The notes beneath the pieces were generated by a model, which ran no database searches, was not told the origin of the DNA, and saw only the letters and a program-made list of their open reading frames with translations. A DNA stretch of 64,000 bases. Origin: Chloroflexota bacterium. GTDB lineage: Bacteria; Chloroflexota; Dehalococcoidia; E44-bin15. Positions within the stretch are counted from its first letter, which is position 1; every line of letters starts with the position of its first letter. Of the stretch, positions 37,522 through 61,057 are shown in pieces. Location of the stretch: NCBI GenBank assembly GCA_030604825.1, contig JAUVVB010000001.1:56702-120701 (forward strand). The letters are read 5' to 3'. The translations under genes were made by a program, and so were the position numbers.

Positions 37522-38409
37522 CTATAACCTTTCTATCAATAGGGGCAATAGGCTTAATCCCCCGAGCAGGATGCACAACTTCCAAAAACGCATTTTGGTG
37601 GCAATCCTCAGTAGTGCGCCAATGGTCAGAATGCCAAAGAGGAAAGCAGCTAGAATAGCGCTTATAGCTACCAGGTTGAAACTCACCCCGTCAATTAACC
37701 CCAACCCTATTTCCGCCGCTAGCACCACCGGGATGCTCATCAGAAAGCTCACCCTTATTGCTTTCCTTGCATCATATCCCCTGAACAATAAAATAGACAC
37801 GGTTAGACCGGATCTGCTCAGTCCAGGGAACACGGAGAATGCTTGAACCACGCCGAGCAGGACAGCATCTTTTATTCCCGGCATCGTTTTCAACCCCGAA
37901 TATCTGGACGCATATTTTTGTACCATTCCCGTGATTATCAAGAACCCCCCTATGATTGCCATTACCATGCCCGCAGGGATTCCCTTTTCGCTTAAACCGA
38001 AAATCATCAACGGGGCTCCCACCGCCCCGGTTAACATCGTTGAGACTATTAAGAAGGTAATCAACGCATTCCTCTCTGACCCGCTAGCGGCTCCCAGGTC
38101 CCTTATGTACTGTGGCAGATGGCGTGACAGATCGGCGATGTCCCTTCTAAAATAAATCAGGGCGGCAAACAATGTTCCCGTGTGTAGCCACAAGGAGATT
38201 CCAATAGCCTCAGCTATCGGCTGTTGGAAGAAATGCAGCAGAATAAGCGTATTGATGCCCTGGCTGCTTATCGGCAACCACTCAGTTATCCCCTGGACCG
38301 CCCCCAAAATTATGCCTTGAAAGAAAGTCCTCACTTTCCCGCCTTCGCCGTCCTCGCCAATTACACTTTCCTTGATGAGTGTAACCGTGTCAGGTTGTAA
38401 TAAGGTCAA
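37522..38409 (-). CDS. uppP: undecaprenyl-diphosphatase
   Basis: GITEWLPISSQG..., 8 TM helices; TTG start as given by the track; the true start may be GTG at 38334 (VRTFFQGIILGAVQGITEWLP). Confidence 0.85.
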   Translation of the reverse strand: MTLLQPDTVTLIKESVIGEDGEGGKVRTFFQGIILGAVQGITEWLPISSQGINTLILLHFFQQPIAEAIGISLWLHTGTLFAALIYFRRDIADLSRHLPQYIRDLGAASGSERNALITFLIVSTMLTGAVGAPLMIFGLSEKGIPAGMVMAIIGGFLIITGMVQKYASRYSGLKTMPGIKDAVLLGVVQAFSVFPGLSRSGLTVSILLFRGYDARKAIRVSFLMSIPVVLAAEIGLGLIDGVSFNLVAISAILAAFLFGILTIGALLRIATKMRFWKLCILLGGLSLLPLLIERL

Positions 38410-38543
38410 AATTGGGTTATATGATGGTTAGAACGCGCACAGTTCGTCCCACCCCAGGGGCAGAGCGCCTTTCAGCCTCTCTATCCGTTTACGTAGATTA
38501 TTAACCCTTTTTCCCCATCGTTTCCCTTAGTTGTGGGTCGAGG

Positions 38544-38584
38544 TTCTAACCAAATTCTAACCTCGCCTTAACCTAATTCTAACC
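38544..38584 (-). promoter_or_regulatory. array of four 11-bp-phased direct repeats GGTTAGA(A/T) (read on the gene strand) upstream of uppP
   Basis: Plus strand shows TTCTAACC at 38544, 38555, 38577 and CCTTAACC at 38566, exactly 11 bp apart; an extra inverted copy lies at 38443-38450. Confidence 0.55.
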
Positions 38585-38864
38585 ATGGTAGTTGGGCCCG
38601 GTTTATGAGCTGAGGGGGCTGCTCCTATTTAAGGGGCTTAACCTGGGAAGGGCGATGGTCATCGTTTCCAATGTGGCTATTCTGGCTACAGCATGCATAG
38701 CTGATCGGCCGCTAGTCGCAGCTAGGCCTTAGTGACTGCGGGGTCAAGGTCAGTGCGGGGTGGATGCCGCTAGATTTACCTGCCTCAACCTGGGAGCTTT
38801 TCAGCAGCCCAGCGCAAGAACGCAAAGAAGCAACAGTATTGCGGGAACCAGCAGCCCGCCGCTC

Positions 38865-41500: not shown

Positions 41501-42631
41501 TTACAAAGTTCTTTCATTACCTCTGAGAGTGGCCATTACGTTTTTGGCAATCTCAGCGCCTACTTTTTCCCATGAGTACTTTTCGAGAACAAGACGTCTA
41601 CCATTTTCTCCCAGAGCCTGGCATTTCTCCGCATTCCCTATTAGCTCGACTAATACCTCCGATAGATGTTCCACATCGCCACACTTCACAAGGTGCCCAG
41701 TTTCTCCCTCTAAAACCAAATCAGGTATTCCCTCAACGTCTGTAGCAACGACGGGAAGTCCATGAGCAAATGCCTCTAAGCATACGATTGGAAAAGAAGG
41801 ATCTAGCTTGGTTGGAAGACAGAACACGGAAGCCCTTTCATAGTAATGATTGAGCCTTTCGAGGGGAACTCGACCAACTACATCGCAACTGGGAATATTC
41901 AATTTAGGTGAGCATCCCACAACGGTGAGTCGAGCGGTAGGATGAGCTTTTAGAACCCGTTTGAATGCTTCTACCAGCTCCGGTCCACCCTTCCTTTCCC
42001 AATCCATCCCCACAAACAAGATGTTCTTATTTTCGTATTTTCCTTTATCCACTTCGATGTTTGTTCCTATATTGCTACCTGAGTGCACACAAATAACTTT
42101 ATCTGAAGGACAAGAATAGTCTTCTATAATAGACCTTGATATATTACTACTCCTGGTAAAGTTAAGTGTGGCATTGTGATAAATGGTTCTCTCCAGTTCA
42201 ATCCAGCGCGGGCTATACAGGTCTTTTTTCTCAAAATCTGGATAAGATAGATTTGCCAGGTGAGTGTGGTCAGTATAGACATAGTGCGGCAAGCCTTCTT
42301 TACTTCCATCATATAATGATTGAAATTGAAAGGAAAACCGGTACTCATCTTGCGAAAGGAGGTTGGACACCAAGGTTTTTATTCTTCTAAATATATATGT
42401 CGTTCTCCAAAAACATTCGCTGATTTTTTTCCTGCCCAGCAGTATTTCCGAGCCATACTCTTTCAAAATAAAGAACATGTTTACCAGGATTACAGTTTTT
42501 TTGCTTCTAATTAAATCCCCAACATGTATTACATCAATGTCCCAATCGGGAAAGTGCTCTATTAGCGTTTGCATAACACTGCCCTTCGAGGGGTGAGCCC
42601 CCCGTGTTATGAAAGCAAATTTTCTTGCCAT
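41501..42631 (-). CDS. glycosyltransferase family 4 (GT-B, RfaB/WcaL-like); AT-rich
   Basis: 376 aa; C-terminal GT4 region CLPTKLDPSFPIVCLEAFAHGLPVVATDVEGIPDLV (E-x7-E); markedly lower GC than the flanks. Confidence 0.75.
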   Translation of the reverse strand: MARKFAFITRGAHPSKGSVMQTLIEHFPDWDIDVIHVGDLIRSKKTVILVNMFFILKEYGSEILLGRKKISECFWRTTYIFRRIKTLVSNLLSQDEYRFSFQFQSLYDGSKEGLPHYVYTDHTHLANLSYPDFEKKDLYSPRWIELERTIYHNATLNFTRSSNISRSIIEDYSCPSDKVICVHSGSNIGTNIEVDKGKYENKNILFVGMDWERKGGPELVEAFKRVLKAHPTARLTVVGCSPKLNIPSCDVVGRVPLERLNHYYERASVFCLPTKLDPSFPIVCLEAFAHGLPVVATDVEGIPDLVLEGETGHLVKCGDVEHLSEVLVELIGNAEKCQALGENGRRLVLEKYSWEKVGAEIAKNVMATLRGNERTL

Positions 42632-42660
42632 AGAGGACCTCCTTGAGAAACCCTGCCTTC

Positions 42661-42760
42661 ATCCATTGTGCCTGAGAGTAGTCTCTATGTTTTTAACTAT
42701 CTCAGCGCCTACTTTTTCCCAGTGTAGACTTGCCAGGTGAGTACGGTCAGTATAGAAAGC
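42661..42760 (-). pseudogene. ~100-bp remnant of a second GT4 paralog (internal fragment joined directly to the last ~20 codons)
   Basis: 42661-42720 is about 85% identical to 41515-41575 (...WEKVGAEI(V/A)KN...); 42731-42758 matches 42254-42281 (YTD(R/H)THLA); the intervening ~700 bp of the gene is absent. Confidence 0.55.
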
Positions 42761-43946
42761 CTTCAGTCCATAAACCAGTTATATGCCAGTTGCGTATATC
42801 AAAGATTTGCTCGTACTTACCCCCTGTTAGGTCTTTTACAGTAAAATTCCAAGATCCACTCGTTTTTTCATCGACTGAGAAACCAAATTGATGCAACTGG
42901 TCAAATACATCTTGAGCTAGAGAATCCCTTGGATTCCCCAAGAACCGAAACCGTCCCGCTTTTTTGGCGTAATCTTTGAGTATTGCATACAACAAAAGAG
43001 ATGTTGCATATCTGTCTTCCGAGAGAATGTCTGAAATGGATGCAAACCCCTGAAACAATACAACAAACGCATATGCCCGTAATTTACCACCTTGGTAAAC
43101 TTGATACTCATCGTATTTAAGGAATGGATGTTCTCGAACTCTCCACCTAAGATATTTTTGATCATATTTTAGAGATACAATATTGTTATGTTTTGACTTT
43201 ACCCTTTCATAAAGTTCTTTCAACGAACGTTCGTCTATCTCCCCTTTTTTGATTTCATATCCTGCTTGTTTTTGAATTTGAGGAATGGTTCTGCTATTTC
43301 TTATTCTCATAAAGGAAGATTGTGTAATTAACTTTCCTACAGAACCAATTCGACGCCAAAGCGGGGTTGTGGTTCCGTAGGGATTGGTTCGTAGCCTTGA
43401 AACTATATCAGCCCAAATGTTGCCAGGTCGCAGCCACACTTGAATGTCTGGGTAAAGAGTATATCCAAGTTTTTGAGGCACTTTTACTAAAGGTCCGAGA
43501 CCCCATAAGAATTGAATTCCACGGTCAATGGAATGTTTTTCTACATATCCCGCTAACTCTAGCAAAAGAGTGGTTCCTCTATAAGGTGGCAGTATTAACA
43601 GGCTTTCATTTTTTCCGGACAGGACACACTCAGTCCCAACCTCCATATAAATAGGGATCATGGCTCTTGTTGCGATTAATTTGTCACCATCTTTTGCAAA
43701 TGCGAATACTGCCTTCCCGGGCATGCATGTTTCATACTCCCATAGCCAATCTTCGGGTCTTCTTCTTGTTCCATAATGGGAGTTGTGAAAATCGACCATA
43801 TCCAAAGCATCTCTTAATGTGGCCAATCCAAATTCAATTCTTCGTTGTTCAGGCTCTGAACCGGGAAAGTCTTCTATTTGTGTTTGCATAGCGCTGGTTT
43901 TTGTGGGGTGAGAACCCCATGTTATGAAAGCAAATCTTACACTCAT
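42747..43946 (-). CDS. chimeric ORF: first ~27 codons (plus upstream leader) of a GT4 paralog fused in frame to an AT-rich acyltransferase-like (FemAB/GNAT-fold?) body
   Basis: N-terminus MSVRFAFITWGSHPTKTSAMQTQIEDFP parallels MARKFAFITRGAHPSKGSVMQTLIEHFP of ORF 41501-42631 (~85 bp of DNA homology including the 5' leader); the rest is unrelated; the last 4 codons plus stop lie in GT-derived remnant sequence. Confidence 0.5.
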   Translation of the reverse strand: MSVRFAFITWGSHPTKTSAMQTQIEDFPGSEPEQRRIEFGLATLRDALDMVDFHNSHYGTRRRPEDWLWEYETCMPGKAVFAFAKDGDKLIATRAMIPIYMEVGTECVLSGKNESLLILPPYRGTTLLLELAGYVEKHSIDRGIQFLWGLGPLVKVPQKLGYTLYPDIQVWLRPGNIWADIVSRLRTNPYGTTTPLWRRIGSVGKLITQSSFMRIRNSRTIPQIQKQAGYEIKKGEIDERSLKELYERVKSKHNNIVSLKYDQKYLRWRVREHPFLKYDEYQVYQGGKLRAYAFVVLFQGFASISDILSEDRYATSLLLYAILKDYAKKAGRFRFLGNPRDSLAQDVFDQLHQFGFSVDEKTSGSWNFTVKDLTGGKYEQIFDIRNWHITGLWTEGFLY

Positions 43947-43997
43947 ACAGCACCTCCCTAAGGAATTTCGCCTACTTTGAAGTACGCCTCCTTAACT

Positions 43998-44918
43998 TCA
44001 AAGTAGAGGTTTTTTTAGACCGTACACTATGCCCTTGTTTCTACGGGCTTCAAATCCGTCCCTGTTTAGCCAAGAAACAATGGTCCTGTAAGTTTCTTTC
44101 TCTCCCGCTTTATGATATGTTGCGATTGCCAATTTTACATCGTTGTCCTTCAAGGTTTCCTTCATCCCTTTGTATGCCTCGATCTCCGCACCTTCGACGA
44201 TCATTTTTATGAAATCAACCTTGTTTACACCCAATTCCCTCAATATATTATCCAATGTATCTACTTCGACCTCCATAAATCTACCCCTGCAACGTACGAA
44301 ACTATGCCCTGATGTATTCTCTTTGATAAAAAGCTTTAGCCTGTCCTTTCTGCTCCAAACGCCCTTCGGAACTATCACCACATTGTTTAGCCCGTTTGCC
44401 CGAATATTTCTTTCCAAGACCCTTAAATTATCCATCTCAGGCTCTATTGCAACGACCATGCCCCCATCCCCCACAGTTTTTGCTGCTCTCACCGTAAACG
44501 TCCCTATGTGTGCCCCTACATCTACAACGATGTCACCCTTTTTGACCTTATAATACTTTTGGTATATCTCGTCCCTATACTGCTGCACTAACTGGCGCCA
44601 AAGGGTTCCAAAGTATTCAATTGTCACTATTTTAGTGAGTATGTGCTGATTTCCATACCTAGAGCGAATTCTAGTAGAAAAGTCAAGTATGCTGTCTTGT
44701 TTTTCCCCGTCTGGCTGAGCATAAAACTTAACGCCATCGTTAAGCTCCACGCGCAAGGATCCGTCTTCTAGCTCTTCTACCTGAGTTATAATTTTACTTA
44801 AGGCATCTAGAGGATTATAATACCTGAAAAGAAGGCTTCTCAGAAAATCTTTAAATCTACCTTCAGGGAGTATACTACTAATTGCCTTTCTTCCCCATTC
44901 TATCAATGTATGCGTCAT
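43998..44918 (-). CDS. FkbM-family methyltransferase
   Basis: DIVVDVGAHIGTFTVRAAK SAM-binding motif, 306 aa; AT-rich. Confidence 0.7.
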   Translation of the reverse strand: MTHTLIEWGRKAISSILPEGRFKDFLRSLLFRYYNPLDALSKIITQVEELEDGSLRVELNDGVKFYAQPDGEKQDSILDFSTRIRSRYGNQHILTKIVTIEYFGTLWRQLVQQYRDEIYQKYYKVKKGDIVVDVGAHIGTFTVRAAKTVGDGGMVVAIEPEMDNLRVLERNIRANGLNNVVIVPKGVWSRKDRLKLFIKENTSGHSFVRCRGRFMEVEVDTLDNILRELGVNKVDFIKMIVEGAEIEAYKGMKETLKDNDVKLAIATYHKAGEKETYRTIVSWLNRDGFEARRNKGIVYGLKKPLL

Positions 44919-45020
44919 TTATACACCTCCACAATTACCCTTTTGCCCCAAGCCTCTGAGAGCGGCAGGTGGCCCCCTGGTTCTCCCGGTAAATATATTT
45001 GACCCGGGTATCTGCAAAGC

Positions 45021-46562
45021 TCATTTGGTTTCCTCATGCGGTGTCTCGATGACGGGTGGGCCTTGCCTCCAAACCAAAGGCACTTTAGCCATAACCAACT
45101 TTGCATATGGCTTGACCATCTCCAGAGCAAGTTCAATCATTTCATTGAGGGCTTCGGTTCTGGCCGCCTTCAATGTTATGAAGTAGATGACAGCACCTAA
45201 CAACACTGAACTGACCAGGAGCCCAACATCAGGTAAAGTGAACAAGCTTGCTGCCGCATAGCGAAAGGCAAGCAGGGTCACGGCCATCACTACAGCGCCA
45301 AAGGCGGCGGGGCGCAGTGAGGCCAGGTAATCTCTCATCCTCAAACCGATAAGTCGGTTGGCAAATATCTGGCGAGTGAGCCACATGATAGCAGCAACCC
45401 CTGAAACACCCAGGGCAACACCTACTGTTCCGAATCTGACTCCAATGAGCAGGCACGGAACCAGAAGGGCAACTGTTACTAGACTTAGTTTCAGCTCAAT
45501 ATCAGGCCTCCCCTTGGACCGCAAAACAGGTCCAACCGTTACGCTGATCGAGGCAATAGCGGCCATGATACAGAGTATCTGCATGGGCAGGATAGCCGCA
45601 GTCCATTTTTGACCAAAAACTACCTTAACCAATTCAGGGGCGACTATAGCTAGCCCAACGAATAAGGGGAGGACAATTAGACAGAGATATGTCACGCTCT
45701 TCGTGAATCCGCGGCGCAACCGCTCATCTTCATCCTGAACTATTGAGAAAGCAGGAAAAGCTACTCTGCCCACAGTCATCCACAGCCCCGTTGCCACGAA
45801 GCCTGCTGTTCTATGCCCCAAGTTGTAGAACCCCAGGGCTGCCGGCATTAAGAATATTCCGATGATCAGGTAGTCTAATCTCTCGGTCAGATACTGAACG
45901 ACCCTGCTTCCGGTCAAGTTGGAGCCAAACCCCCACAAATCCCTCAGGCTTTTGAGGCTGAACATAATAGACGGGTGCCAACGGCATAGAGCCCACCTCA
46001 GGATGGCAAGGGCAAGGTGGCTTGCCAGGTTGCCCAGGACAAGGCTCCAGACCCCAAAGCCGGCAAATGCCAGGGGCACCGCTACAGCCAGGTAAGTAAC
46101 TCCCTGTCCAATTTCACCGATTGAGAACCTGAAAAACTGTAACCTCTTCCGCAACAGGCTGCTGTGGACAGACCTCAGGGGAGCAATGACGAAGGCTAGA
46201 GAGGAAACCGCCAATATCGGACCGACGAGCTCGTTTCCGAAGAAATCTGCCACAAAGGGAGAGATAGCCACCGTCACAGTGCAGAAGACAAGGCCAAAGG
46301 CCAACCCGGTCCAAAAGGCTGTTGAAAGATGACTGGCGGTTACCTCTTTTCGCTGGATGATAGCTTCGCCAAAGCCCAGATCGCCCATTCGCAGCACTAG
46401 CTCGGTGACGATGATCGCCATGGCGACGATGCCAAAATCCTCCGGGAAGAGCAGCCGGGCCAGAACGATCATGCTTATGAAGCGCAGGCCTTGCCCCAGG
46501 ACCTGGGAGACTCCAAACCAAGTCACCCCGCGCACTGCTGACCTAGTTAGCGCACCGCTCAT
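45021..46562 (-). CDS. wzx: polysaccharide biosynthesis protein / Wzx-type flippase (MOP superfamily)
   Basis: 513 aa, ~12-14 TM; N-terminus AVRGVTWFGVSQVLGQGLRFISMIVLARLL typical of O-unit flippases. Confidence 0.75.
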   Translation of the reverse strand: MSGALTRSAVRGVTWFGVSQVLGQGLRFISMIVLARLLFPEDFGIVAMAIIVTELVLRMGDLGFGEAIIQRKEVTASHLSTAFWTGLAFGLVFCTVTVAISPFVADFFGNELVGPILAVSSLAFVIAPLRSVHSSLLRKRLQFFRFSIGEIGQGVTYLAVAVPLAFAGFGVWSLVLGNLASHLALAILRWALCRWHPSIMFSLKSLRDLWGFGSNLTGSRVVQYLTERLDYLIIGIFLMPAALGFYNLGHRTAGFVATGLWMTVGRVAFPAFSIVQDEDERLRRGFTKSVTYLCLIVLPLFVGLAIVAPELVKVVFGQKWTAAILPMQILCIMAAIASISVTVGPVLRSKGRPDIELKLSLVTVALLVPCLLIGVRFGTVGVALGVSGVAAIMWLTRQIFANRLIGLRMRDYLASLRPAAFGAVVMAVTLLAFRYAAASLFTLPDVGLLVSSVLLGAVIYFITLKAARTEALNEMIELALEMVKPYAKLVMAKVPLVWRQGPPVIETPHEETK

Positions 46563-46617
46563 TTAATCAGCCCACCTCGTCTGGCTTATGGCAATGGTTC
46601 CGGCTATCATCCATGCT

Positions 46618-47775
46618 CTACCCAACAGTGAGGCCCTCCCTCTGCCTCAGAGTCTCCTCATATAGTGATTGATATTGGTGTACCATCCTTTCCAGGCTGA
46701 ATTGGGTGACAACCCTCTCCTTGGCTCTTTGGCCCATGGCCTCGGCTGTGTCTGGATCCTGGAGTAGTGCGATGATGGCCTGTGCCAGCGGCTCAGCATC
46801 CCCCCGGGGAACCAGGAAGCCAGTTTCGCCGTGGCGCACCAGCTCCCGGTTGCCTCCCACATCCGTGGCCACCACCGGTTTTCCCAGCGCCATGGCCTCG
46901 AGCAGGGAGTTAGAACAGCCCTCGGTCTCTGAGGTCAGAGCAGCTATGTCGAAGGCTGAAAGGTAGGTGCCCACATCTCGTTGCTCACCAAAAAAGACCG
47001 CTTTTGAAGCCAGACCCAGCTCCTGGGTCATGTCTTCCAGATGGCTGCGCAAGGGTCCGTCTCCCACTAGAGCAAATCTTGTATCTGGCATAACCTGGTT
47101 GATCAACGCTGCCGCCTGGAGGAAGATAGCGTGGCCTTTAACCGGAAACAAACGGGCCATCATGCCCACTACCCTGCCGTGGGGAGGCAGATCGAGCCTC
47201 CGCCTGACCTGTTCCACGCCCTCGTCATCGGCGGTCAGGCGACTCAGGTTGATCCCGTTATAGATCACCCTTATGCGGGAAGGTTTGATGCCTCGTTGGA
47301 CAAGATATTCCTGTCCCGCATGGCTGTTAGGAACAGCCCAGTCAGCAAAGCGGGTGAGGAAATCCTCAGCCTTGAGGTAGATACGATAGCCAAGGTGATC
47401 ATTCCTTTTTCCGGGGCCGGATCTTTCGGTCACAATCTTCACCGGCGTGCGTCGCAGGAGCGCTGGCAGAAGGCCGAAAAGGGTAGCCGGGGTGAGGAAA
47501 GGTTGAACTATATCGATCTTCATCTTGCGGAGGATGCCCAAGACCTTAAACAGGCAGAGAAGATCGTATTTCCCCTTGCGTTCTAGGGAAATGACCTCGA
47601 CGTCGGGCACTTGCTTGAATTCCCGTTCCAGAGGGCCCCCGGGGTGAAGGGTGAGGACAACGGGCTTGAATCGTTTCTTGTCCAGGCCCTTGACCAGTTC
47701 CAGGAGCTGACGCTGTGCTCCGTCCATTGCTAGGTCAGTTATGGGGAAAAGCACCGTTATGCGCTCATTCATCAA
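46618..47775 (-). CDS. glycosyltransferase family 4
   Basis: 385 aa; EGCSNSLLEAMALGKPVVATDVGGNRELV. Confidence 0.8.
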   Translation of the reverse strand: MMNERITVLFPITDLAMDGAQRQLLELVKGLDKKRFKPVVLTLHPGGPLEREFKQVPDVEVISLERKGKYDLLCLFKVLGILRKMKIDIVQPFLTPATLFGLLPALLRRTPVKIVTERSGPGKRNDHLGYRIYLKAEDFLTRFADWAVPNSHAGQEYLVQRGIKPSRIRVIYNGINLSRLTADDEGVEQVRRRLDLPPHGRVVGMMARLFPVKGHAIFLQAAALINQVMPDTRFALVGDGPLRSHLEDMTQELGLASKAVFFGEQRDVGTYLSAFDIAALTSETEGCSNSLLEAMALGKPVVATDVGGNRELVRHGETGFLVPRGDAEPLAQAIIALLQDPDTAEAMGQRAKERVVTQFSLERMVHQYQSLYEETLRQREGLTVG

Positions 47776-47794
47776 CCCACCTCACCCCAATACC

Positions 47795-49267
47795 TCAGCT
47801 CTGACTTGCCCTCTTTGCTTTCGGGCCTTGGCTTTGAAGCACCAGTTTAGCGGTGGCCAGCGAGAAGCCGGCCAGTATCCAGAAGAGGGGCATAGTGACC
47901 ATCAGGTTATGATAGAAAGCATTTACCGCGTAAGCTATCAGGGCAGCAGCCAGGCCTACGGACAACCCTTTGATGAAACGTGTAGTCGACGCCCGGTAGG
48001 AGTCAAGGAGGTTGCGTAAGACGACGACATAAAGCCAGAGATAGGCTACCAGGGCCAGCGTTCCATAGCATATCCACATCATTAAGAAATCATTGTGGGG
48101 CGGCTCGCTCCCCAGAGTGCTGTAGCCCCAGTATCTCTCCTCCTCCCATGCCAAGAGGGACGGATCAACATCGGAGGCGTATTCCGGAGAGACGACCCTG
48201 AATCTGTCCCCGCCAATCCCCAACACCGGGTTCTCGATGGCCATGGAAATGCCCGACTGCCACAATATCTGCCGCGAAACAGAGCTTTCCTCTTGTGTAC
48301 CTGCTGGCCTGCCCCCAAGATATTGGCCCCCCAGCATTCCAGTTGCTGCAATGAGGCCAATTCCCAGCAATAAAACGGCAAAAATGATCTCGCCCCTGAT
48401 TCGCGTTTTCAAGAACAGAGCCAGTGCCACCAGCCCCAAGATCAGACCGAAGAGAGCTGAACGTGTATAGGTGAAGTACAAAGCCAATCCTATCAGCACC
48501 GCCGATGATCCTAGTAGCCATCTGGTGCCGGTGTTCACCCCCTTCACTAGAAAGACGCCGAGCAGCGCCGGAAGTGCCACCGAGAGGGTAAATGCCAGCT
48601 CAAGCTCGGTCTCACCCATCCCCGGCACCCTGCCTACCCCTTCCCGAGGGAGCTGGAGAAATCCGGGAATGAGGGTGTTTTGGTCCATACCGAGGAACTG
48701 GTAATGTTGCATCAAGCCGATAATGGCTGAGGCGGCCAAGCCAATAAAGGCCACTCCGCACAGTATCTTCAGGTCCTTCGAGTTCCTGACAACTGCTGGC
48801 AAAAAGATAATGATCAACAGGCCAACCAACATGTTTCGGAAATCTCTAAAGATGAAGTCGAGTCCCGTGTTAGCTATGTTGGCGATCACGCTTACTCCCA
48901 GCAATATGACAGCCGGGATCAGGACTCGCCGTGCCATTGGTCCCAGCTCGACCTGCTTTTGAGCAAAGGAGCGCCACAGGACGAGCCCAATCAGTATCAG
49001 CAACAAAAGACGAAGGCTGATTGTGAGGTCAAAGGGGGTGGTGACCATGTAGCTGGTGGCAGTCAACTGGCTGACCAAGAAGGCGGCCATGGCCCACACC
49101 GGCCTTCTCAGGCCGAGAAGGAACAAGGCAGCCACGGCCAGAAGCGCAGCCGTCAGCGGGCTGATCGGGATGAAGCTCCATATGAGCACTACTCCCAAGA
49201 CAGCCAGGACAATGGCTTGGGTGCGGTTCAACAGCCCTGGTCTTTGAGCTGCGGCTTCCATCTCCAT
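47795..49267 (-). CDS. wzy: O-antigen ligase/polymerase-like membrane protein (Wzy/WaaL family)
   Basis: 490 aa, ~11 TM with a large extracytoplasmic loop; sits between GT genes in a wzx/wzz locus. Confidence 0.65.
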   Translation of the reverse strand: MEMEAAAQRPGLLNRTQAIVLAVLGVVLIWSFIPISPLTAALLAVAALFLLGLRRPVWAMAAFLVSQLTATSYMVTTPFDLTISLRLLLLILIGLVLWRSFAQKQVELGPMARRVLIPAVILLGVSVIANIANTGLDFIFRDFRNMLVGLLIIIFLPAVVRNSKDLKILCGVAFIGLAASAIIGLMQHYQFLGMDQNTLIPGFLQLPREGVGRVPGMGETELELAFTLSVALPALLGVFLVKGVNTGTRWLLGSSAVLIGLALYFTYTRSALFGLILGLVALALFLKTRIRGEIIFAVLLLGIGLIAATGMLGGQYLGGRPAGTQEESSVSRQILWQSGISMAIENPVLGIGGDRFRVVSPEYASDVDPSLLAWEEERYWGYSTLGSEPPHNDFLMMWICYGTLALVAYLWLYVVVLRNLLDSYRASTTRFIKGLSVGLAAALIAYAVNAFYHNLMVTMPLFWILAGFSLATAKLVLQSQGPKAKRASQS

Positions 49268-49270
49268 CTC

Positions 49271-50422
49271 CTAGGCCAACAATTCCTCATAGACCTTCAG
49301 GTACTCATGCTTCATTACTTGCCACTGGCAGTTGCGGTAGAAGGCCTGACCATGGGAGGCCAGGGAAGCCCTCTTTTCTGGCCTGCTATAGAGCTCCAGA
49401 ATCCGGGCGGCCAAGTCCTTTTCGTCGTCGGGCTGGTAGTAGAGGACGTAGTCATCATCGAAGGTGGCCTTGAGGCTAGGCAGGGCGCTGACTACCGAGG
49501 GCTTACCTAGGGCAAAGTAATCAAATAGTTTATTGGGTAGGCCCACGTCATCGATCATGGGAACTATTCCTATATCCGCTTGGGCGATGAAATAAGGGAC
49601 GCTCTCAAGGGAGACCCAGCCGGTGAAGCAGATATGCTCATCCACTCCCAAATCGCGAGCCAGCTTCTCCAGCTCCGGGCGGTAATCCCCATCCCCCACC
49701 ACGTCCACCCTCAGCTCGGGGATGTCCTTGAGCAGCAGAGGCATAGCCCTTATCAGCGTTTGCACCCCATATCTCTTGAGGATGGTGCCGTGCGTTATCA
49801 GGCGGAAGTGGCCATCACTCGTCGGGGCAGGGGCAACGATGTTGAAGAGCTCATCATCGGGTACATTCAGCACCACGGTGAGCTTCTCGCTGGGGACACC
49901 ATGGCCTTCCAGCACTCGCTTATAGGGAATGCCGTCGGCGACGATTACCCGGTGGGCATAGCCAGCACTGACCCTCTCCAACAGGCGCAGCAGCCTGGCG
50001 CCTATATGATTGGGGCCTGTCTTGAAGGTGGAGGCGAAGAGCTCGGGCATGTTCTCATACATGTAGAGGATGACCTTCGTGCCCAGGAGCCTGGGGAATA
50101 GGGTGATGAAGACAAGAAAGTCAGGCATGGTATCCACTTCTATCACATCGTATCTCTTCTTCAACGAAAGCCAGGCCAGCTTCAGAGAAGAGAGGAGGAA
50201 GAAGGCAATGTATTCCAAAACGTACCAGAGAGCGTTGCCGCGGCGAAATCCCAAGGGGAGGCGATGCAAGTTTACCCCCCGAATTGTCTCCTGCCCCTTC
50301 TCGCCTTTCTTTCTGAGGCAAAGGACATCCACCTCATAGCCTTGGCTGACCAGAGCCTCAGCATTCCTCACCACATTCTTGTTAGGCCAGTACTTCTGTC
50401 TAATAATGCATACTCTCTTCAC
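49271..50422 (-). CDS. glycosyltransferase family 4
   Basis: 383 aa GT-B; ...VVSALPSLKATFDDDYVLYYQP C-terminal domain. Confidence 0.75.
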   Translation of the reverse strand: MKRVCIIRQKYWPNKNVVRNAEALVSQGYEVDVLCLRKKGEKGQETIRGVNLHRLPLGFRRGNALWYVLEYIAFFLLSSLKLAWLSLKKRYDVIEVDTMPDFLVFITLFPRLLGTKVILYMYENMPELFASTFKTGPNHIGARLLRLLERVSAGYAHRVIVADGIPYKRVLEGHGVPSEKLTVVLNVPDDELFNIVAPAPTSDGHFRLITHGTILKRYGVQTLIRAMPLLLKDIPELRVDVVGDGDYRPELEKLARDLGVDEHICFTGWVSLESVPYFIAQADIGIVPMIDDVGLPNKLFDYFALGKPSVVSALPSLKATFDDDYVLYYQPDDEKDLAARILELYSRPEKRASLASHGQAFYRNCQWQVMKHEYLKVYEELLA

Positions 50423-50431
50423 GAGCCCTCC

Positions 50432-51412
50432 TCAGGCTTTTTGCCAGAACCACAATCGGCCCAGCCCTCGCCTCCTCTTCTCTTGAAGCAGTTCCTCATA
50501 GAGGGAGATGATCCTTCGGCTGATGGCTCCGATCTCGACGTGGCCTATCCCGTCCCTGCCATCGGTCCTTCTTCCCCTCTTAAGCGCCAGTTCAAGCTTG
50601 CCAGCTACGTCCTGTGGGTCCTGGGAACAGAGGTAACAGCCCTCGGTGCCTCCGATAACCTGGGGCACATCCCCCGCCGGGACCGACACGATTGGCAGGT
50701 TACAAGCCATAGCTTCTTTGATAACCATGGGCGAGCCCTCACCATCTGATACCAGCAGCAATACGTCGCAAGCACTCATGTATTTCGGAACCGCAGAAAG
50801 CGGCTTCCCCCCTACCAGGACTAGCTCCACATCGGGGTCCCTTTCCCGAAGGAGGTCCACCGATTTCTGCACGATGTCGAACCTCTTGATCGGTCTCCAG
50901 TATTCCCCCGCCCACAGAACCAGCTTCCTGTCCTGGGGGAGATTCAGCTCTTCTCTCGCCTGTTGCCGGGGCATCGGCTTAAACAGATCAAAGTCGATGC
51001 CGCAGGGGATGACCTCGAGTTTGTTATTTTCCATTTTCTCCTTCATCTCTGGAGATACCACTATCGCCCGGTCCATTAGCGGGGTGACTAGCCGGCAAAT
51101 GGGAGCTTGCCAACCGGCAAATACCTGGGAGCCATGGTGGGTAAGCAACACCGGGTAGAGGAATTGCGCCCTGGCAATTATCCCGGAAAACACGTAGTGG
51201 GCATGGATCAGGTCATAGCGGTGGGTCAAAAGCCATGCCCAGAGCCGGGGAAAGGCCCATAGATAGTTGAGGGTGTTTTTTACCCCATCAACAAAGAATA
51301 CATCTACCTGCACCCCCTCCTTCCTCAGGGATTCTACCTGTTCCTTAACAAAGGTGCCGAACCAAGGCTTCCTTTCCGTGGGATACATGTTAGTGAGGAC
51401 CAAAACCTTCAT
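50432..51412 (-). CDS. glycosyltransferase family 4
   Basis: Start taken at internal Met (MKVLVLTNMYP), avoiding overlap with the epimerase; GSPMVIKEAMACNLPIVSVPAGDVPQVI. Confidence 0.75.
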   Translation of the reverse strand: MKVLVLTNMYPTERKPWFGTFVKEQVESLRKEGVQVDVFFVDGVKNTLNYLWAFPRLWAWLLTHRYDLIHAHYVFSGIIARAQFLYPVLLTHHGSQVFAGWQAPICRLVTPLMDRAIVVSPEMKEKMENNKLEVIPCGIDFDLFKPMPRQQAREELNLPQDRKLVLWAGEYWRPIKRFDIVQKSVDLLRERDPDVELVLVGGKPLSAVPKYMSACDVLLLVSDGEGSPMVIKEAMACNLPIVSVPAGDVPQVIGGTEGCYLCSQDPQDVAGKLELALKRGRRTDGRDGIGHVEIGAISRRIISLYEELLQEKRRRGLGRLWFWQKA

Positions 51413-51416
51413 CCCG

Positions 51417-52376
51417 TCACCTCCTATTCTCCCGATACCAGCGGACAAAGAGGGGTATGCCCTCCTCTATGCTTACCTTAGGCTCGTAGCCGAGAAGGGC
51501 CTGGGCCTTGGAGATATCAGCCAGGGTGACGGGCACCTCCCCAGATTGTGGTGCCAGGTTCCTGGTCCTGGCCTTCTTGCCCAGGGCTTCTTCGATCAGC
51601 TCGAGGAGATATCTGAGATCCACGGCCTCTCCCCTACCTAGGTTAAAAATGTGGAAGCCTTTTTCCTGTCGGACGAGGGCAGCCTCAAAACCAGCTATGA
51701 TGTCGTCAACATAGGTGTAGTCCCTTTTGGCGGTGCCATCGCCAAAGAGGGTAACCTCCTCCCCCTGATCTACCATTTTGACAAAGCGATGGATGGCCAT
51801 CTCCGGTCTCTGGCGAGGCCCGTACACCGTGAACAATCTGAACACCACAAGGGGCAAGGGGTAAAGGTAGCTATAGGTGCGGCAGAAGAGCTCCGCCGCT
51901 GCCTTGGAGGCGGCATAGGGCGAGATAGGGTAACTCACCTTGGCGTCCTCGTTGAACGGAGCCTTTCCATTGAGGCCGTAGACAGATGACGAGGAGGCGA
52001 AGAGGAACTGCTTGACCCCGGAGGCTCGGCAGGCCTCTAGCAGGTTTATTGTCCCCTTTATATTGACATCTTGGTACAGGAGTGGCTGCTCTAGGGAGGG
52101 CCTGACCCCGGCGCGAGCCGCAAGATGCACCACCGCGCCGATGCCGTTCTCCGAGAAAACATGGCCTAAGAGGAGAGCATCCCGGATGTCCCCCTCTACT
52201 AGCAGGAAGCCATCTTTTTCTCGCAGGGCATGGATATTCTTCCACTTGATGGCCGGGGAGTAAGAATCATCGAAGTTGTCCAACCCCACCACCTGGTACC
52301 CCAGACAGAGCAGCCGCTCCACTAGGTGGGAGCCGATAAAGCCGGCGGCACCGGTGACCAAGACTGCTTTTTTCAC
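51417..52376 (-). CDS. NAD-dependent epimerase/dehydratase (UDP-sugar 4-epimerase-like SDR)
   Basis: VLVTGAAGFIGSHLVERLL Rossmann N-terminus; catalytic YAASK. Confidence 0.8.
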   Translation of the reverse strand: MKKAVLVTGAAGFIGSHLVERLLCLGYQVVGLDNFDDSYSPAIKWKNIHALREKDGFLLVEGDIRDALLLGHVFSENGIGAVVHLAARAGVRPSLEQPLLYQDVNIKGTINLLEACRASGVKQFLFASSSSVYGLNGKAPFNEDAKVSYPISPYAASKAAAELFCRTYSYLYPLPLVVFRLFTVYGPRQRPEMAIHRFVKMVDQGEEVTLFGDGTAKRDYTYVDDIIAGFEAALVRQEKGFHIFNLGRGEAVDLRYLLELIEEALGKKARTRNLAPQSGEVPVTLADISKAQALLGYEPKVSIEEGIPLFVRWYRENRR

Positions 52377-53353
52377 GTCTCCTTCCCCTGTTCCTCTGTC
52401 CCCTCCTCGTCCTCTTCCTTCTCCTTTAGTCTGGGTGTAGTGGCTGGTGACGGGCGAGCGTACCTGCTCAGGCCTTTGAAGTTCAACCCCACCCAGGCAA
52501 AACCTACGCCAAACACAGCCCCCATTATCAGGGCGTTTCGACCCCTTATCTTGTCCGGGGGCACCAAAGTTGGAGCTGAGGGGTCTCCGATGATAAGGCG
52601 ACCGAGCACCTCCGGCTCGACGGGATCGGCGGTGGACAACGATACCAGTTGGGCGGACAAGGTATCGAGTTCTCTTTGTAGCGCCCTGACCCTAGCATCG
52701 GTCATGACATAGGCTACGTCCAGCTCGAGCAGGTCGGCGTCCACGAGCCCGTCAACCCCGGTTTGCGTCGCCAGGTCAGCGAGCTCGTTTCTGGCTTCAA
52801 CCAGGTCGGCACTGACGCTGCCGAACCTCGCCTTCACGTACTGGTACTCTTTCTGCTGCAGATCGCGTTCTTCCGCCGTCAAATAATCCTGGAAGACCTG
52901 CGGTGCGATGCCAGCGAGAAAGAAAGCCTCGCCCTCGCTGGGGCTGGTCATCCTCACAGAGACAAGGGGGTTGTCGCTTGAGTATTCGTATCTAACTCTC
53001 ATCATTTCCTCCAGCTCCTGGAGGGTGTGAGAATACCGGGGGGCCAGAACCTCCACCTCATGGCTGAAGAACTCAAGGAAAGAAGAGGTGCCCATCTTGG
53101 CGGCGTAGTACTCTCCTTCATATTGGAGGCTTTTCACACTCCTGTAATACGAGCCGGGGGGCATGAGTTCGAGGGTCACTGTGCTTTCGTAGAGGTCAGG
53201 CGGGCTATTGAAGTGAATGGGTGGCCATCCCATTTCGGCTTCGGCATTTATAGGGCTGATGTGCCAATAGCCCAGGCCCAACAGACCCCCCACGATAAGC
53301 CCCAGCAACAAAATCAAAATCGAGCGGCGGCTGAAAAACGGAACCATGTTCAC
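52373..53353 (-). CDS. wzz: polysaccharide chain-length determinant (Wzz/PCP) protein
   Basis: N- and C-terminal TM helices (ILILLLGLIVGGLLGL...; ALIMGAVFGVGFAWVGL) flanking a coiled-coil periplasmic region. Confidence 0.7.
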   Translation of the reverse strand: MNMVPFFSRRSILILLLGLIVGGLLGLGYWHISPINAEAEMGWPPIHFNSPPDLYESTVTLELMPPGSYYRSVKSLQYEGEYYAAKMGTSSFLEFFSHEVEVLAPRYSHTLQELEEMMRVRYEYSSDNPLVSVRMTSPSEGEAFFLAGIAPQVFQDYLTAEERDLQQKEYQYVKARFGSVSADLVEARNELADLATQTGVDGLVDADLLELDVAYVMTDARVRALQRELDTLSAQLVSLSTADPVEPEVLGRLIIGDPSAPTLVPPDKIRGRNALIMGAVFGVGFAWVGLNFKGLSRYARPSPATTPRLKEKEEDEEGTEEQGKET

Positions 53354-53360
53354 TACCTCC

Positions 53361-58405: not shown

Positions 58406-58434
58406 CTCTATACCTCCAACATAGCCTGCCCAAG

Positions 58435-61020: not shown

Positions 61021-61057
61021 GCCAACTTTGTTGGCTTTGTTAGTCTAACAGAGACGT

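What the first reader, a model, noticed from the sequence alone, without database searches (positions are those of the whole stretch)
38410..38600. The same 11-bp-phased GGTTAGA boxes precede uppP, suggesting an envelope-stress-type regulon
Four repeats lie exactly 11 bp apart on the plus strand: TTCTAACC, TTCTAACC, CCTTAACC, TTCTAACC at 38544/38555/38566/38577. This is the reverse complement of the 61.2-kb array, so they point towards uppP. They sit 135-175 bp upstream of uppP (undecaprenyl-pyrophosphate phosphatase), and one inverted copy lies at 38443. The flanking unit GGTTAGAATTTGG is identical at both loci. Two-component control of UppP/BcrC-type phosphatases is the hallmark of cell-envelope stress responses such as Bce/Lia-type bacitracin responses. 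The co-occurrence suggests the adjacent two-component system controls lipid-carrier recycling and perhaps the neighbouring surface-glycan locus, which starts 280 bp away.
Basis: partly seen in the sequence, partly recalled or inferred. Interest (0 to 1): 0.7.

Follow-up and report, generated by a model that had tools for sequence, protein, structure and literature searches.

The report
Response-regulator binding arrays upstream of uppP
The repeated GGTTAGAA boxes in front of the lipid-carrier recycling gene uppP are most likely docking sites for the nearby OmpR/PhoB-type response regulator, which seems to co-control uppP, its own operon and a surface-sugar gene cluster in a group of uncultured Chloroflexi; this is a sound but ordinary kind of gene switch, not a bacitracin-type stress system.

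Summary
The boxes are real. All seven exact GGTTAGAA octamers in the 64 kb lie in two loci: upstream of uppP, and between the response-regulator (RR) operon and the head of a 23-kb glycan gene cluster.

A second, convergent four-box array (38393-38433) lies next to uppP. It is followed after exactly 9 nt by a -10-like hexamer and has no -35. The same layout occurs at 11 of 12 gene-proximal arrays in seven related loci, which resembles a PhoB-type promoter. The flagged array (38544-38584) lacks this layout and is best read as an upstream auxiliary site.

- **Conservation:** both arrays are kept with uppP in the closest relative, in a different gene neighbourhood. An RR orthologue of 64% identity sits directly beside a different uppP that carries its own array. 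Five uppP orthologues at 66-75% identity have none.
- **The RR:** it is a generic OmpR/PhoB-family protein with a nearly invariant recognition helix.
- **The kinase:** it is cytoplasmic (GAF/PAS, no membrane segments), and no BceAB or LiaF partner is present.

Verdict: an RR-uppP-glycan regulon is supported, and a Bce/Lia-type envelope-stress system is not. This is a new member of a known kind, of moderate-to-low interest.

The parts
38544..38584 (-). Distal four-box array (the finding): GGTTAGAAttaGGTTAAGGcgaGGTTAGAAtttGGTTAGAA. It points towards uppP, 210-250 bp upstream of the GTG start, and is read here as an upstream auxiliary RR-binding array.
   Evidence: Sequence. Enrichment. TRF period 11. 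It is 38/41 identical in the L008 orthologous locus. No -10-like hexamer follows it in either direction.
38393..38433 (+). Proximal four-box array, convergent with the distal one: GGTTGTAAtaaGGTCAAAAttgGGTTATATgatGGTTAGAA. On the uppP coding strand it reads TTCTAACC...TTACAACC and abuts the predicted promoter.
   Evidence: It is conserved in L008 (GGTTGGAAcaaGGTCAAAAttgGGTTATATaatGGTTAGAA). A TAnnnT hexamer follows after 9 nt.
38378..38383 (-). Predicted -10 hexamer of uppP (TACACT; TATACT in L008), 9 nt after the last proximal box. There is no -35 match 17 bp upstream. A second candidate -10 is TGTAAT at 38360-38365 (TATAAT in L008).
   Evidence: This is a prediction only. The generic sigma-70 scan found no full promoter here.
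37522..38334 (-). uppP (BacA-family undecaprenyl-diphosphate phosphatase), 270 aa from GTG 38334. It is the last gene of the minus-strand run that starts at 61020.
   Evidence: Pfam BacA 153.7 bits. The 270-aa form equals P0121, and most homologues are about 270 aa. It scores below NCBIfam equivalog cut-offs, so it is divergent, with 46-51% identity to archaeal homologues.
61057..61097 (+). Four-box array proximal to the divergent minus-strand promoter at the head of the glycan cluster: TGTTAGAAcggAGTTGGAGcttGGTCAGAAaaaCGTTAGAA.
   Evidence: It is identical in L003 and differs at one spacer base in L006. Equivalent arrays exist in L182, L183 and L193. TAGACT follows after 9 nt.
61042..61047 (-). 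Predicted -10 (TAGACT) of the REC-GGDEF / glycan-cluster promoter.
   Evidence: AGTCTA is invariant in the three-way alignment. The offset-9 geometry is shown.
61193..61255 (+). Five-to-six-box array (GGTTAGAG, GGTTAGAA x2, GGTTACAA, degenerate CTTTAGAA, GGTTAGAA), 45 bp upstream of the RR promoter's -35. The copy number varies between relatives.
61300..61328 (+). Near-consensus sigma-70 promoter of the RR-HK operon (TTGACA-17-TATGAT).
   Evidence: 11 of 12 matches. TTGAC(A/T), a 17-18 bp spacer and TAnnnT are kept in L003, L006, L182, L183 and L193.
61547..62233 (+). OmpR/PhoB-family response regulator (REC + winged-helix Trans_reg_C), the proposed binder of the boxes.
   Evidence: Pfam. Closest solved structures are KdpE, RpaA, MtrA, RegX3 and PhoP. 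It scores below every NCBIfam equivalog cut-off. The recognition helix is nearly invariant in orthologues of 64-100% identity.
62268..64000 (+). Cognate histidine kinase (runs off the window): GAF-PAS-HisKA-HATPase, with no transmembrane segment and a Cys-rich PAS stretch.
   Evidence: Orthologues are also soluble.
58435..60981 (-). REC-GGDEF-HisKA-HATPase-HD-GYP multidomain protein, first gene behind the 61057-61097 array. The longest ORF starts at 61020; the likely start is the ATG at 60981.
   Evidence: Pfam. The L003 orthologue is 849 aa against 861 for the longest ORF.
41501..58465 (-). Und-P-dependent Wzx/Wzy-type glycan cluster. It encodes a UDP-sugar dehydrogenase, Bac_transf initiating transferase, GFO/Idh/MocA oxidoreductase, hexapeptide acetyltransferase, DegT aminotransferase, epimerase, GT4 glycosyltransferases, a Wzy_C protein, a Wzx flippase and an FkbM methyltransferase. 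The beta-helix surface protein (38865-41021) and uppP follow it.

Best explanation
The GGTTAGAA boxes are most likely binding half-sites for the OmpR/PhoB-family response regulator encoded at 61547-62233.

**Binding (inferred).** Phosphorylated RR dimers would bind head-to-tail to pairs of boxes spaced 11 bp apart, so a four-box array would hold two dimers.

**Architecture (shown in sequence).** Each regulated promoter region has two arrays. The gene-proximal array reads TTCTAACC on the coding strand. It ends exactly 9 nt before a TAnnnT -10 hexamer and occupies the place of a missing -35. This is the pho-box layout, so the RR probably acts as an activator that recruits RNA polymerase. A second array lies 64-150 bp further upstream.

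**At uppP.** The proximal array is 38393-38433. It probably adds cooperative binding, raises local RR concentration, or loops to the proximal array.

**Regulon.** In this lineage it comprises three units:
- the RR-HK operon (autoregulation);
- the divergent REC-GGDEF gene with the Und-P-dependent Wzx/Wzy glycan cluster behind it;
- uppP, which regenerates the Und-P carrier that the cluster consumes.

In relatives it also includes a polysaccharide-deacetylase operon.

**Signal (unknown).** It is sensed in the cytoplasm by a soluble GAF/PAS kinase with a Cys-rich PAS, possibly redox or a metabolite, rather than at the membrane.

**Shown versus inferred.** Shown: the sequence architecture, its conservation and the gene linkage. 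Inferred: RR binding, activation and the role of the distal array.
For: 1. **Non-random, phased boxes.** They are restricted to two regulatory regions in 64 kb.
2. **The nearby regulator fits.** It has REC + Trans_reg_C domains. From established knowledge, this family binds direct repeats with a 10-11 bp period (PhoB pho box, WalR, KdpE). RpaB, one of its nearest named relatives, binds 8-nt direct repeats (G/T)TTACA(T/A)(T/A) (PMC6525291), close to GGTTAGAA / GGTTACAA.
3. **Arrays track the RR gene.** They lie upstream of it in every orthologous locus examined, at 88, 82, 74, 69, 67 and 64% identity. Its recognition helix [ST][YF]VKLY[IV]RYLR[QK]KIE is nearly invariant.
4. **Fixed promoter geometry.** 11 of 12 gene-proximal arrays, in at least four independent promoter classes, have TAnnnT exactly 9 nt after the last box. 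The background frequency is 1.1% per position. None of 9 distal arrays has it.
5. **uppP module conserved.** Both arrays are kept with uppP in L008/L009. The distal array is 38/41 identical, although the upstream neighbour differs: a divergent deacetylase operon there, the 3' end of a beta-helix gene here. The spacing between the arrays differs by a net 43 bp, about 4 helical turns.
6. **Independent linkage.** In Dehalococcoidaceae MAG contig L118 a different-subfamily uppP (BacA 271.6 bits) lies immediately upstream of the 64%-identical RR-HK. It has a three-box array 61-90 bp from its start in the same orientation as the window's proximal array. Its score is 23.9 against a best of 21.2 in 60 shuffles.
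7. **Biological coherence.** The RR-HK pair sits beside an Und-P-dependent glycan cluster in the five orthologous loci fetched with 10-kb flanks. The window's arrays bracket that cluster.
Against: - There is no experimental evidence. The RR-box link rests on co-localisation and family analogy.
- Five uppP orthologues at 66-75% identity (L010, L012, L190, L191, L192) have no arrays. uppP is therefore a lineage-specific regulon member. I could not check whether those genomes carry the RR.
- Tandem GGTTAGAA arrays also occur in unrelated phyla (Lachnospiraceae, Desulfovibrio, Balneolaceae), so the motif alone is not diagnostic.
- The flagged distal array has no recognisable promoter geometry, and its orientation relative to the proximal array is convergent at uppP but direct at the RR locus. 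Its role is the weakest part of the model.
- Two alternative -10 hexamers exist upstream of uppP: TACACT at 38378-38383 and TGTAAT at 38360-38365. The generic sigma-70 scan found no promoter there.
- The L118 uppP array fits the 9-nt rule only if a degenerate fourth box is assumed.
Confidence: 0.68

Rival explanations
1. The boxes are operator sites for some other transcription factor encoded elsewhere in the genome. Their proximity to the RR operon would then reflect that factor regulating the two-component system, not autoregulation.
For: No binding data exist. Only 64 kb of the genome is visible. Similar GGTTAGAA arrays occur in phyla that lack this RR, so other proteins can evidently use such repeats.
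Against: The RR is the only DNA-binding protein that co-occurs with the arrays in all seven loci. The head-to-tail 11-bp period and the replacement of the -35 are signatures of the OmpR/PhoB family. The half-site resembles those of the RR's nearest characterised relatives (PMC6525291).
Confidence: 0.12
2. Only the proximal array (38393-38433) regulates uppP. The flagged distal array (38544-38584) would be a leftover of, or belongs to, a divergent promoter. In L008 a deacetylase operon with its own same-orientation array lies 52 bp beyond it. In this window the distal array would have little or no function.
For: In L008 the distal array has the same orientation as the deacetylase-proximal array 5700-5740. 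That mirrors the direct-orientation pair at the RR locus. In the window nothing is transcribed away from it, and no -10 follows it.
Against: The array is 38/41 identical between the window and L008, although sequence immediately upstream of it is not alignable and the neighbouring gene differs. A relic would be expected to decay. The 43-bp net indel between the arrays roughly preserves helical phase. Every regulated region examined has a second array.
Confidence: 0.15
3. The system would be a Bce/Lia-type cell-envelope stress module that senses lipid-II-cycle inhibitors such as bacitracin at the membrane and induces uppP as a resistance determinant.
For: uppP/bacA confers bacitracin tolerance in many bacteria (established knowledge). 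BceR is also an OmpR-family RR. Co-regulation with envelope glycan genes is compatible with an envelope-related response.
Against: - The kinase and all four orthologues read have no transmembrane segments and carry cytoplasmic GAF/PAS modules.
- No BceAB-type transporter (intramembrane-sensing kinase plus a permease with a large extracytoplasmic loop, PMC3023708) and no LiaF lies beside the system in any locus.
- LiaR is NarL-type, whereas this RR is OmpR-type.
- In B. subtilis bcrC is ECF-sigma controlled (PMC5723303).
Confidence: 0.04
4. The arrays are non-regulatory repeats. They could be a mobile repeat or MITE family (the convergent arrays would be terminal inverted repeats), or slippage-generated microsatellite-like DNA.
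For: The uppP arrays are convergent, like TIRs, with a variable 67-110 bp interior. The copy number of the 61.2-kb array varies between relatives. Near-identical arrays sit next to different genes in L008 and L183.
Against: - Only two loci occur in 64 kb, both intergenic and upstream of genes.
- Positions are syntenic across relatives.
- There is a fixed 9-nt distance to a -10 hexamer.
- Box cores are conserved while spacers vary.
- Matches in viral contigs are about the number I estimated for chance (48).
- No Rfam family matches.
Confidence: 0.04

Closest known systems
PhoB and the pho box (E. coli Pho regulon)
   Same: An OmpR/PhoB-family RR. The half-sites are direct repeats on an 11-bp period. 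The array sits a fixed ~10 bp upstream of the -10 and replaces the -35. The regulator's own operon is autoregulated. The cognate kinase scores best against PnpS/PhoR-type models, though below their cut-offs.
   Different: The half-site is GGTTAGAA, not CTGTCAT. The RR scores far below the PhoB equivalog cut-off (172.8 against 296.2 bits). The kinase is soluble with GAF and PAS domains. The targets are glycan and lipid-carrier genes, not phosphate genes. There is a second, upstream four-to-six-box array.
OmpR at ompF/ompC (tandem F1-F3 / C1-C3 sites plus distal F4)
   Same: Several tandem RR sites fill the -40 to -100 region, and an additional distal site lies further upstream and is thought to act by looping (established knowledge). 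This matches the proximal-plus-distal array architecture seen here.
   Different: The motif and regulon differ. Here the proximal array reaches to -22 and replaces the -35. The RR is not an OmpR equivalog (140 against 331 bits).
RpaB and the HLR1 motif (cyanobacteria)
   Same: It is among the best NCBIfam matches of the RR (188.8 bits). HLR1 is a pair of 8-nt direct repeats (G/T)TTACA(T/A)(T/A) (PMC6525291), which resembles GGTTAGAA / GGTTACAA. Its effect depends on position (activator or repressor).
   Different: The HLR1 period is 10 bp with two repeats, whereas here it is 11 bp with four to six boxes. The score is below the RpaB cut-off of 330. The phylum differs and the regulon is unrelated (light acclimation).
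WalR/YycF-WalK and MtrA-MtrB (cell-wall homeostasis two-component systems)
   Same: They are the best (YycF, 196.5 bits) and second-best (MtrA, 190 bits) NCBIfam RR matches. The WalK model also matches the kinase core (179.4 bits). They bind hexamer direct repeats on an 11-bp period (established knowledge). They control cell-envelope biogenesis genes.
   Different: All scores are well below the cut-offs (340, 300 and 725). WalK and MtrB are membrane kinases, whereas this one is soluble. The targets here are a Wzx/Wzy glycan cluster and uppP, not autolysins or divisome genes.
BceRS-BceAB, LiaFSR and sigma-M control of bcrC (Firmicutes bacitracin response)
   Same: The functional theme is shared: the supply of Und-P carrier is adjusted transcriptionally through a Und-PP phosphatase gene.
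   Different: There is no intramembrane-sensing kinase, no BceAB and no LiaF, and the RR is not NarL-type. In B. subtilis bcrC is controlled by ECF sigma factors, not a two-component system (PMC5723303).

Membership tests
OmpR/PhoB-family response-regulator operator (direct-repeat array) | A regulator with a REC domain and a winged-helix Trans_reg_C domain is encoded at the locus. | tested here: met
   Pfam Response_reg 97.2 bits and Trans_reg_C 87.9 bits. PDB relatives are KdpE, MtrA, RegX3 and PhoP.
OmpR/PhoB-family response-regulator operator (direct-repeat array) | The half-sites are head-to-tail direct repeats with a period of about 10-11 bp. | tested here: met
   Spacing is exactly 11 bp at 38544-38584 and 38393-38433, and 10-11 bp at the 61-kb arrays.
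OmpR/PhoB-family response-regulator operator (direct-repeat array) | The sites co-occur with the regulator across orthologues (autoregulatory sites upstream of its own operon). | tested here: met
   Arrays are present upstream of the RR in L003, L006, L182, L183, L193 and L118, at 88-64% identity. The recognition helix is conserved.
OmpR/PhoB-family response-regulator operator (direct-repeat array) | The phosphorylated RR binds the boxes physically and sequence-specifically. | not testable with these tools
   This needs EMSA, footprinting or DAP-seq with purified protein.
Pho-box-type (class II) promoter | The array lies at a fixed short distance upstream of the -10 and replaces the -35 hexamer. 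| tested here: met
   This holds for the proximal arrays only. 11 of 12 have TAnnnT at an offset of exactly 9 nt, against a background of 1.1%, and no -35 lies 17 bp upstream. It does not hold for the flagged distal array 38544-38584, or for any of the 9 distal arrays. Start sites are not mapped.
BceRS-BceAB-type antimicrobial-peptide sensing module | An intramembrane-sensing histidine kinase (two TM helices, no sensor domain) is paired with a BceAB ABC transporter that has a large extracytoplasmic loop (PMC3023708). | tested here: not met
   The kinase has no TM segment and carries GAF and PAS domains. No FtsX/BceB-type permease lies next to the system in the window or in six related loci. 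Only a Wzm/Wzt-like ABC2 pair is seen, in L182.
LiaFSR-type envelope-stress system | A NarL/FixJ-type RR (GerE HTH) is found with LiaS and the membrane protein LiaF. | tested here: not met
   The RR output domain is Trans_reg_C. No LiaF-like gene is adjacent.
Named RR equivalogs (WalR/YycF, MtrA, RpaB, PhoB, KdpE, CseB, BaeR, CpxR) | The score reaches the curated NCBIfam equivalog cut-off. | tested here: not met
   The best match is YycF at 196.5 against 340 bits. Others are MtrA 190/300, RpaB 188.8/330, PhoB 172.8/296.2 and KdpE 163.1/325. The JGI 'KdpE' labels on homologues therefore look like over-annotation.
BacA/UppP undecaprenyl-diphosphate phosphatase | A full-length match to the BacA family model. 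| tested here: met
   PF02673 at 153.7 bits, covering profile positions 2-255 of 257. The protein is below the NCBIfam equivalog cut-offs (143.5/354), so it is a divergent, archaeal-like member. Its activity is not tested.
Mobile repeat / MITE family | Many dispersed copies bounded by terminal inverted repeats and target-site duplications, with presence/absence polymorphism. | tested here: not met
   Only two loci occur in 64 kb. Positions are syntenic in relatives. Viral-contig matches are about the number I estimated for chance. The complete source genome was not available.

The most novel reading that the evidence does not exclude
This would be the cis-regulatory code of a soluble, possibly redox-sensing (Cys-rich PAS/GAF), two-component system that is widespread in uncultured Chloroflexi. 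The system would act as the master switch for Und-P-dependent surface-glycan or glycoprotein biogenesis. It would couple the glycan cluster, a deacetylase / ATP-grasp / PS-decarboxylase operon, a c-di-GMP-type REC-GGDEF-HD-GYP partner and lipid-carrier recycling (uppP). It would do so through a distinctive bipartite promoter: a four-box array replacing the -35, plus a phased upstream array. That would give the first testable regulon for envelope biogenesis in a lineage with no genetic system.
Probability: 0.4. Interest if true: 0.5.

Novelty: new member of a known kind. Interest (0 to 1): 0.36.

Why it matters
Regulation in uncultured Chloroflexi (Dehalococcoidia-like MAGs) is almost uncharted. 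This work yields a well-defined motif (GGTTAGAA on an 11-bp period), a fixed promoter geometry and a conserved regulator. Together they give a regulon that can be predicted genome-wide from sequence and tested with purified protein alone.

The biology is sensible rather than surprising. A cell that switches on a Wzx/Wzy-type glycan pathway also needs more Und-PP phosphatase to recycle the carrier. The finding also corrects automatic 'KdpE' annotations of this regulator family. It does not reveal a new mechanism.

Tried and rejected
- **Generic sigma-70/terminator scan of 38200-39000.** It found no promoter. The geometry was found only by comparing arrays across loci.
- **My first -10 guess (AATAAT at about 38497-38502).** I rejected it because it lies in a 46-bp segment that is absent from L008.
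- **Genome-collection scan for GGTTAGAAN3GGTTAGAA.** Twelve of the 120 were Chloroflexi, and the source genome was not recovered. It mainly showed that similar tandem arrays exist in unrelated phyla. It did yield L118.
- **Viral-contig scan.** It gave 48 hits, close to the roughly 46 I estimated for chance from an assumed collection size, so nothing points to a phage or mobile origin.
- **Rfam.** The gathering search of the whole window and the E-value searches of both intergenic regions found no RNA family. No tRNA genes were found.
- **Consensus folding of the RR 5' leader across six loci.** No shared structure was found.
- **Full-text search for the motif.** It returned only primers and unrelated hits.
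- **Search for further arrays inside the glycan cluster or elsewhere in the window.** None was found, only isolated single boxes.
Full report
**Observation**

TTCTAACC lies at 38544, 38555 and 38577, and CCTTAACC at 38566, exactly 11 bp apart on the + strand. TRF reports a period of 11.

On the - strand the boxes read GGTTAGAA. This is the strand of uppP (37522-38409 as the longest ORF; Pfam BacA 153.7 bits), so the boxes point towards the gene.

All seven exact GGTTAGAA octamers in the window lie either here or at 61.2 kb. The expectation is 1.18, and none of 100 shuffles reached seven. A position-weight scan for chains of boxes spaced 10-12 bp finds four arrays in the window, against 0.05 expected.

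Three details need correcting:
- Gene callers and about 120 homologues use a 270-aa UppP that starts at GTG 38334. The boxes are therefore 210-250 bp from the start codon.
- The inverted copy is at 38426-38433, not 38443.
- The exact 13-mer GGTTAGAATTTGG occurs only at the uppP locus. The two copies at 61 kb each differ by one base.

The inverted copy is the innermost box of a second four-box array on the + strand, also phased at 11 bp: 38393-38433, GGTTGTAAtaaGGTCAAAAttgGGTTATATgatGGTTAGAA. The uppP upstream region therefore carries two convergent arrays 110 bp apart.

The 61-kb intergenic region likewise has two arrays. One has four boxes at 61057-61097. The other has five to six boxes at 61193-61255.

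**Gene context**

- The RR (61547-62233, +) has REC and Trans_reg_C domains.
- Its kinase (62268 to the window end) is GAF-PAS-HisKA-HATPase with no transmembrane segment.
- A REC-GGDEF-HisKA-HATPase-HD-GYP protein is transcribed divergently from the RR.
- Every gene from there down to uppP is on the - strand. They encode a UDP-sugar dehydrogenase, the Bac_transf initiating transferase, WbpB/D/E-like sugar-modifying enzymes, GT4 transferases, a Wzy_C protein, a Wzx flippase, a methyltransferase, a PT-rich beta-helix surface protein, and finally uppP.
- The two regulatory regions thus bracket a 23-kb Und-P-dependent glycan cluster.
- By the source names of its homologues, the organism is an uncultured Chloroflexi bacterium.

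**Comparative evidence at the RR locus**

I examined RR orthologues of 88% (L003-L005), 82% (L006/L007), 74% (L182), 69% (L183), 67% (L193/L194) and 64% identity (L118).

- The five fetched with 10-kb flanks keep the RR-HK pair beside a glycan cluster of the same type. L118 shows none in its 7.6 kb, but there uppP itself adjoins the RR.
- All of them carry box arrays upstream of the RR.
- The 61057-61097 array is identical in L003 and differs at one spacer base in L006. The other array varies in copy number.
- The RR recognition helix is nearly invariant across this range. This fits a conserved DNA motif.

**Comparative evidence at uppP**

The closest orthologue (87% identity, L008/L009) comes from the same samples as L006/L007. 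It keeps both arrays; the distal one is 38/41 identical. Its upstream neighbour is different: a divergent polysaccharide-deacetylase operon rather than the beta-helix gene. Homology ends just upstream of the distal array. The module 'distal array, proximal array, uppP' has therefore moved as a unit. The gap between the arrays differs by a net 43 bp, roughly four helical turns.

Independent support comes from a Dehalococcoidaceae MAG contig (L118). There a uppP of a different subfamily (BacA 271.6 bits) lies directly upstream of the 64%-identical RR-HK. A three-box array sits 61-90 bp from its start, oriented like the window's proximal array. Its score exceeds all 60 shuffles.

Against this, five uppP orthologues at 66-75% identity (L010, L012, L190, L191, L192) have no arrays. 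There uppP follows a small membrane-protein gene or has a different promoter of its own. uppP is a lineage-specific target.

**Promoter geometry**

Consider each gene-proximal array on the coding strand of the gene it faces. After the last box come exactly 9 nt and then a TAnnnT hexamer:

| Promoter | Locus | Hexamer |
|---|---|---|
| uppP | window | TACACT |
| uppP | L008 | TATACT |
| Glycan head | window, L003, L006, L182 | TAGACT |
| Glycan head | L183 | TACAAT |
| Glycan head | L193 | TATTCT |
| Deacetylase operon | L193 | TAAAGT |
| Epimerase side | L183 | TATTAT |
| ScmC side | L008 | TAGAAT |

- Eleven of 12 proximal arrays fit at offset 9, and essentially none at other offsets. The one exception is the L008 deacetylase-operon array, which has TATACC at offset 9 and so lacks the final T. 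The background frequency is 1.1% per position.
- No -35 consensus lies 17 bp upstream, because the boxes occupy that space.
- From established knowledge, this is the pho-box arrangement. It argues for activation by recruitment of RNA polymerase.
- None of nine distal arrays shows it, including the flagged 38544-38584 and the array at 61193-61255.
- The RR operon itself has a near-consensus TTGACA-17-TATGAT promoter. It lies 45 bp downstream of the 61193-61255 array and is conserved in relatives.

**Interpretation**

The best model is a regulon of this OmpR/PhoB-family RR. It comprises the RR's own operon, the divergent REC-GGDEF gene with the glycan cluster, uppP, and in relatives a deacetylase operon. 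Each promoter would have a core four-box array and an upstream auxiliary array. The flagged array is the auxiliary one.

The architecture, its conservation and the gene linkage are shown. Binding, activation and any looping are inferred.

**Comparison with known systems**

- The RR reaches no NCBIfam equivalog cut-off. Its nearest models are YycF/WalR, MtrA, RpaB, PhoB and KdpE. Its nearest solved structures are KdpE, RpaA, MtrA and RegX3.
- The RpaB HLR1 half-site, (G/T)TTACA(T/A)(T/A) (PMC6525291), resembles GGTTAGAA / GGTTACAA.
- The Bce/Lia frame fails on its defining features. The kinase is soluble here and in four orthologues. There is no BceAB-type transporter (definition in PMC3023708) and no LiaF. 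The RR is not NarL-type.
- In B. subtilis bcrC is under ECF sigma control, not Bce or Lia (PMC5723303).

**Rivals and caveats**

- A different, unseen transcription factor cannot be excluded without binding data.
- The distal array could be a partner of the divergent deacetylase promoter seen in L008, and non-functional here. Its near-perfect conservation in a changed neighbourhood argues against that.
- A mobile-repeat origin is unlikely. There are only two loci, they are syntenic, and they have fixed promoter geometry. Matches in viral contigs are about the number I estimated for chance.
- Tandem GGTTAGAA arrays in unrelated phyla show that the motif alone is not specific.

**Verdict**

The regulon idea is supported and can be sharpened. 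The envelope-stress (Bce/Lia) label is not supported. This is a new member of a well-known kind of system, and its value lies in giving a testable regulon for an uncultured lineage.

Noticed in passing
window 61334-61409 (RR 5' leader): Downstream of the RR promoter there is a second kind of 11-bp repeat: GTGCATTG at 61334 and 61356, and GTGTAAAG at 61345. L006 expands it to five copies. There is also a hairpin, ACACGTC(61391-61397)...GACGTGT(61403-61409), which keeps pairing in L006 through a compensatory C>T / G>A change. It is not conserved beyond the closest relatives, and no Rfam family matches.
   Followed up: partly
L143, L115, L074, L157, L065 (Lachnospiraceae and other Firmicutes); L178, L128, L122, L071 (Desulfovibrio); L126, L156 (Balneolaceae, Chitinophagaceae): Unrelated phyla carry their own tandem GGTTAGAA arrays. 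In Lachnospiraceae the form is TTGACA..GGTTAGAATGGTTAGAATGTGGTTAGAAT just before a start codon. In Desulfovibrio it is TTGAC-N5-GGTTAGAAATAGGTTAGAAAAAT. In Balneolaceae there are six direct plus two inverted copies. These are probably operators of other regulators, and TAGAAT inside the box may double as a -10.
   Followed up: no
L119 4480, L164 2845, L112 2866 (Anaerolineae MAGs): A conserved element, GATATTAACACAG...GGTTAGAATGCGGTTAGAAAGCGTAGG, recurs in two Anaerolineae genomes (L119, L164), and L112 shares part of it. Its neighbouring genes were not examined.
   Followed up: no
window 38865-41021 (-) and 47795-49267 (-): The gene just upstream of uppP encodes a 718-aa beta-helix (Pel9A-like) protein. 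It has an N-terminal signal or anchor, a long Pro/Thr-rich linker and a C-terminal TM helix. The cluster also encodes a Wzy_C-family protein. That family includes O-oligosaccharyltransferases (my knowledge), so the PT-rich surface protein could be the glycosylation target.
   Followed up: no
window 42000-46000: GC content drops to 0.40-0.47, against about 0.57 in the flanks. The dip covers the Wzx flippase, an FkbM methyltransferase and a 399-aa protein with no Pfam hit. This looks like a horizontally exchanged, serotype-like variable part of the glycan cluster.
   Followed up: no
window 58435-61020 (-): This gene encodes an unusual 848-861-aa fusion: REC, GGDEF, HisKA, HATPase_c and HD-GYP. 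It is conserved divergently from the RR in L003 and L193, and is replaced by REC-only proteins in L006 and L183. It may link the system to c-di-GMP signalling.
   Followed up: no
window 63000-63170 (HK PAS domain); L182, L183 HKs: The PAS region carries a conserved Cys-rich stretch: HCWEIYLCGNGSTAGQRGYPCPMAGKQEC. The start of the motif, CWEV/CWDV followed by a further Cys, is kept in orthologues. This hints at metal, Fe-S or redox sensing.
   Followed up: no
L008 5700-5740 and 11917-11957; L193 20035-20075; L183 14490-14530: Further four-box arrays with the same 9-nt/-10 geometry lie in front of three gene sets. One is a Polysacc_deac_1 / ATP-grasp / (methyltransferase) / PS-decarboxylase operon (L008, L193). 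One is an epimerase / UDP-sugar-dehydrogenase pair (L183). One is a ScmC-PqqD-radical-SAM/SPASM cluster (L008). These are likely additional regulon members in relatives.
   Followed up: partly
window 38487-38532: A 46-bp segment (CCACAACTAAGGGAAACGATGGGGAAAAAGGGTTAATAATCTACGT) between the two uppP arrays is absent from L008. The flanking about 90 bp down to the proximal array is roughly 88% identical. The function of that conserved spacer block is unknown.
   Followed up: no
window 26056-29643 (-): A DNA methylase fused to an inactive-restriction-endonuclease-like domain (NA-iREase1) lies two genes from a Schlafen/AlbA_2 protein; an amino-acid-kinase/PUA gene (27537-28685) lies between them. 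This may be a small defence or restriction-modification islet, unrelated to the finding.
   Followed up: no
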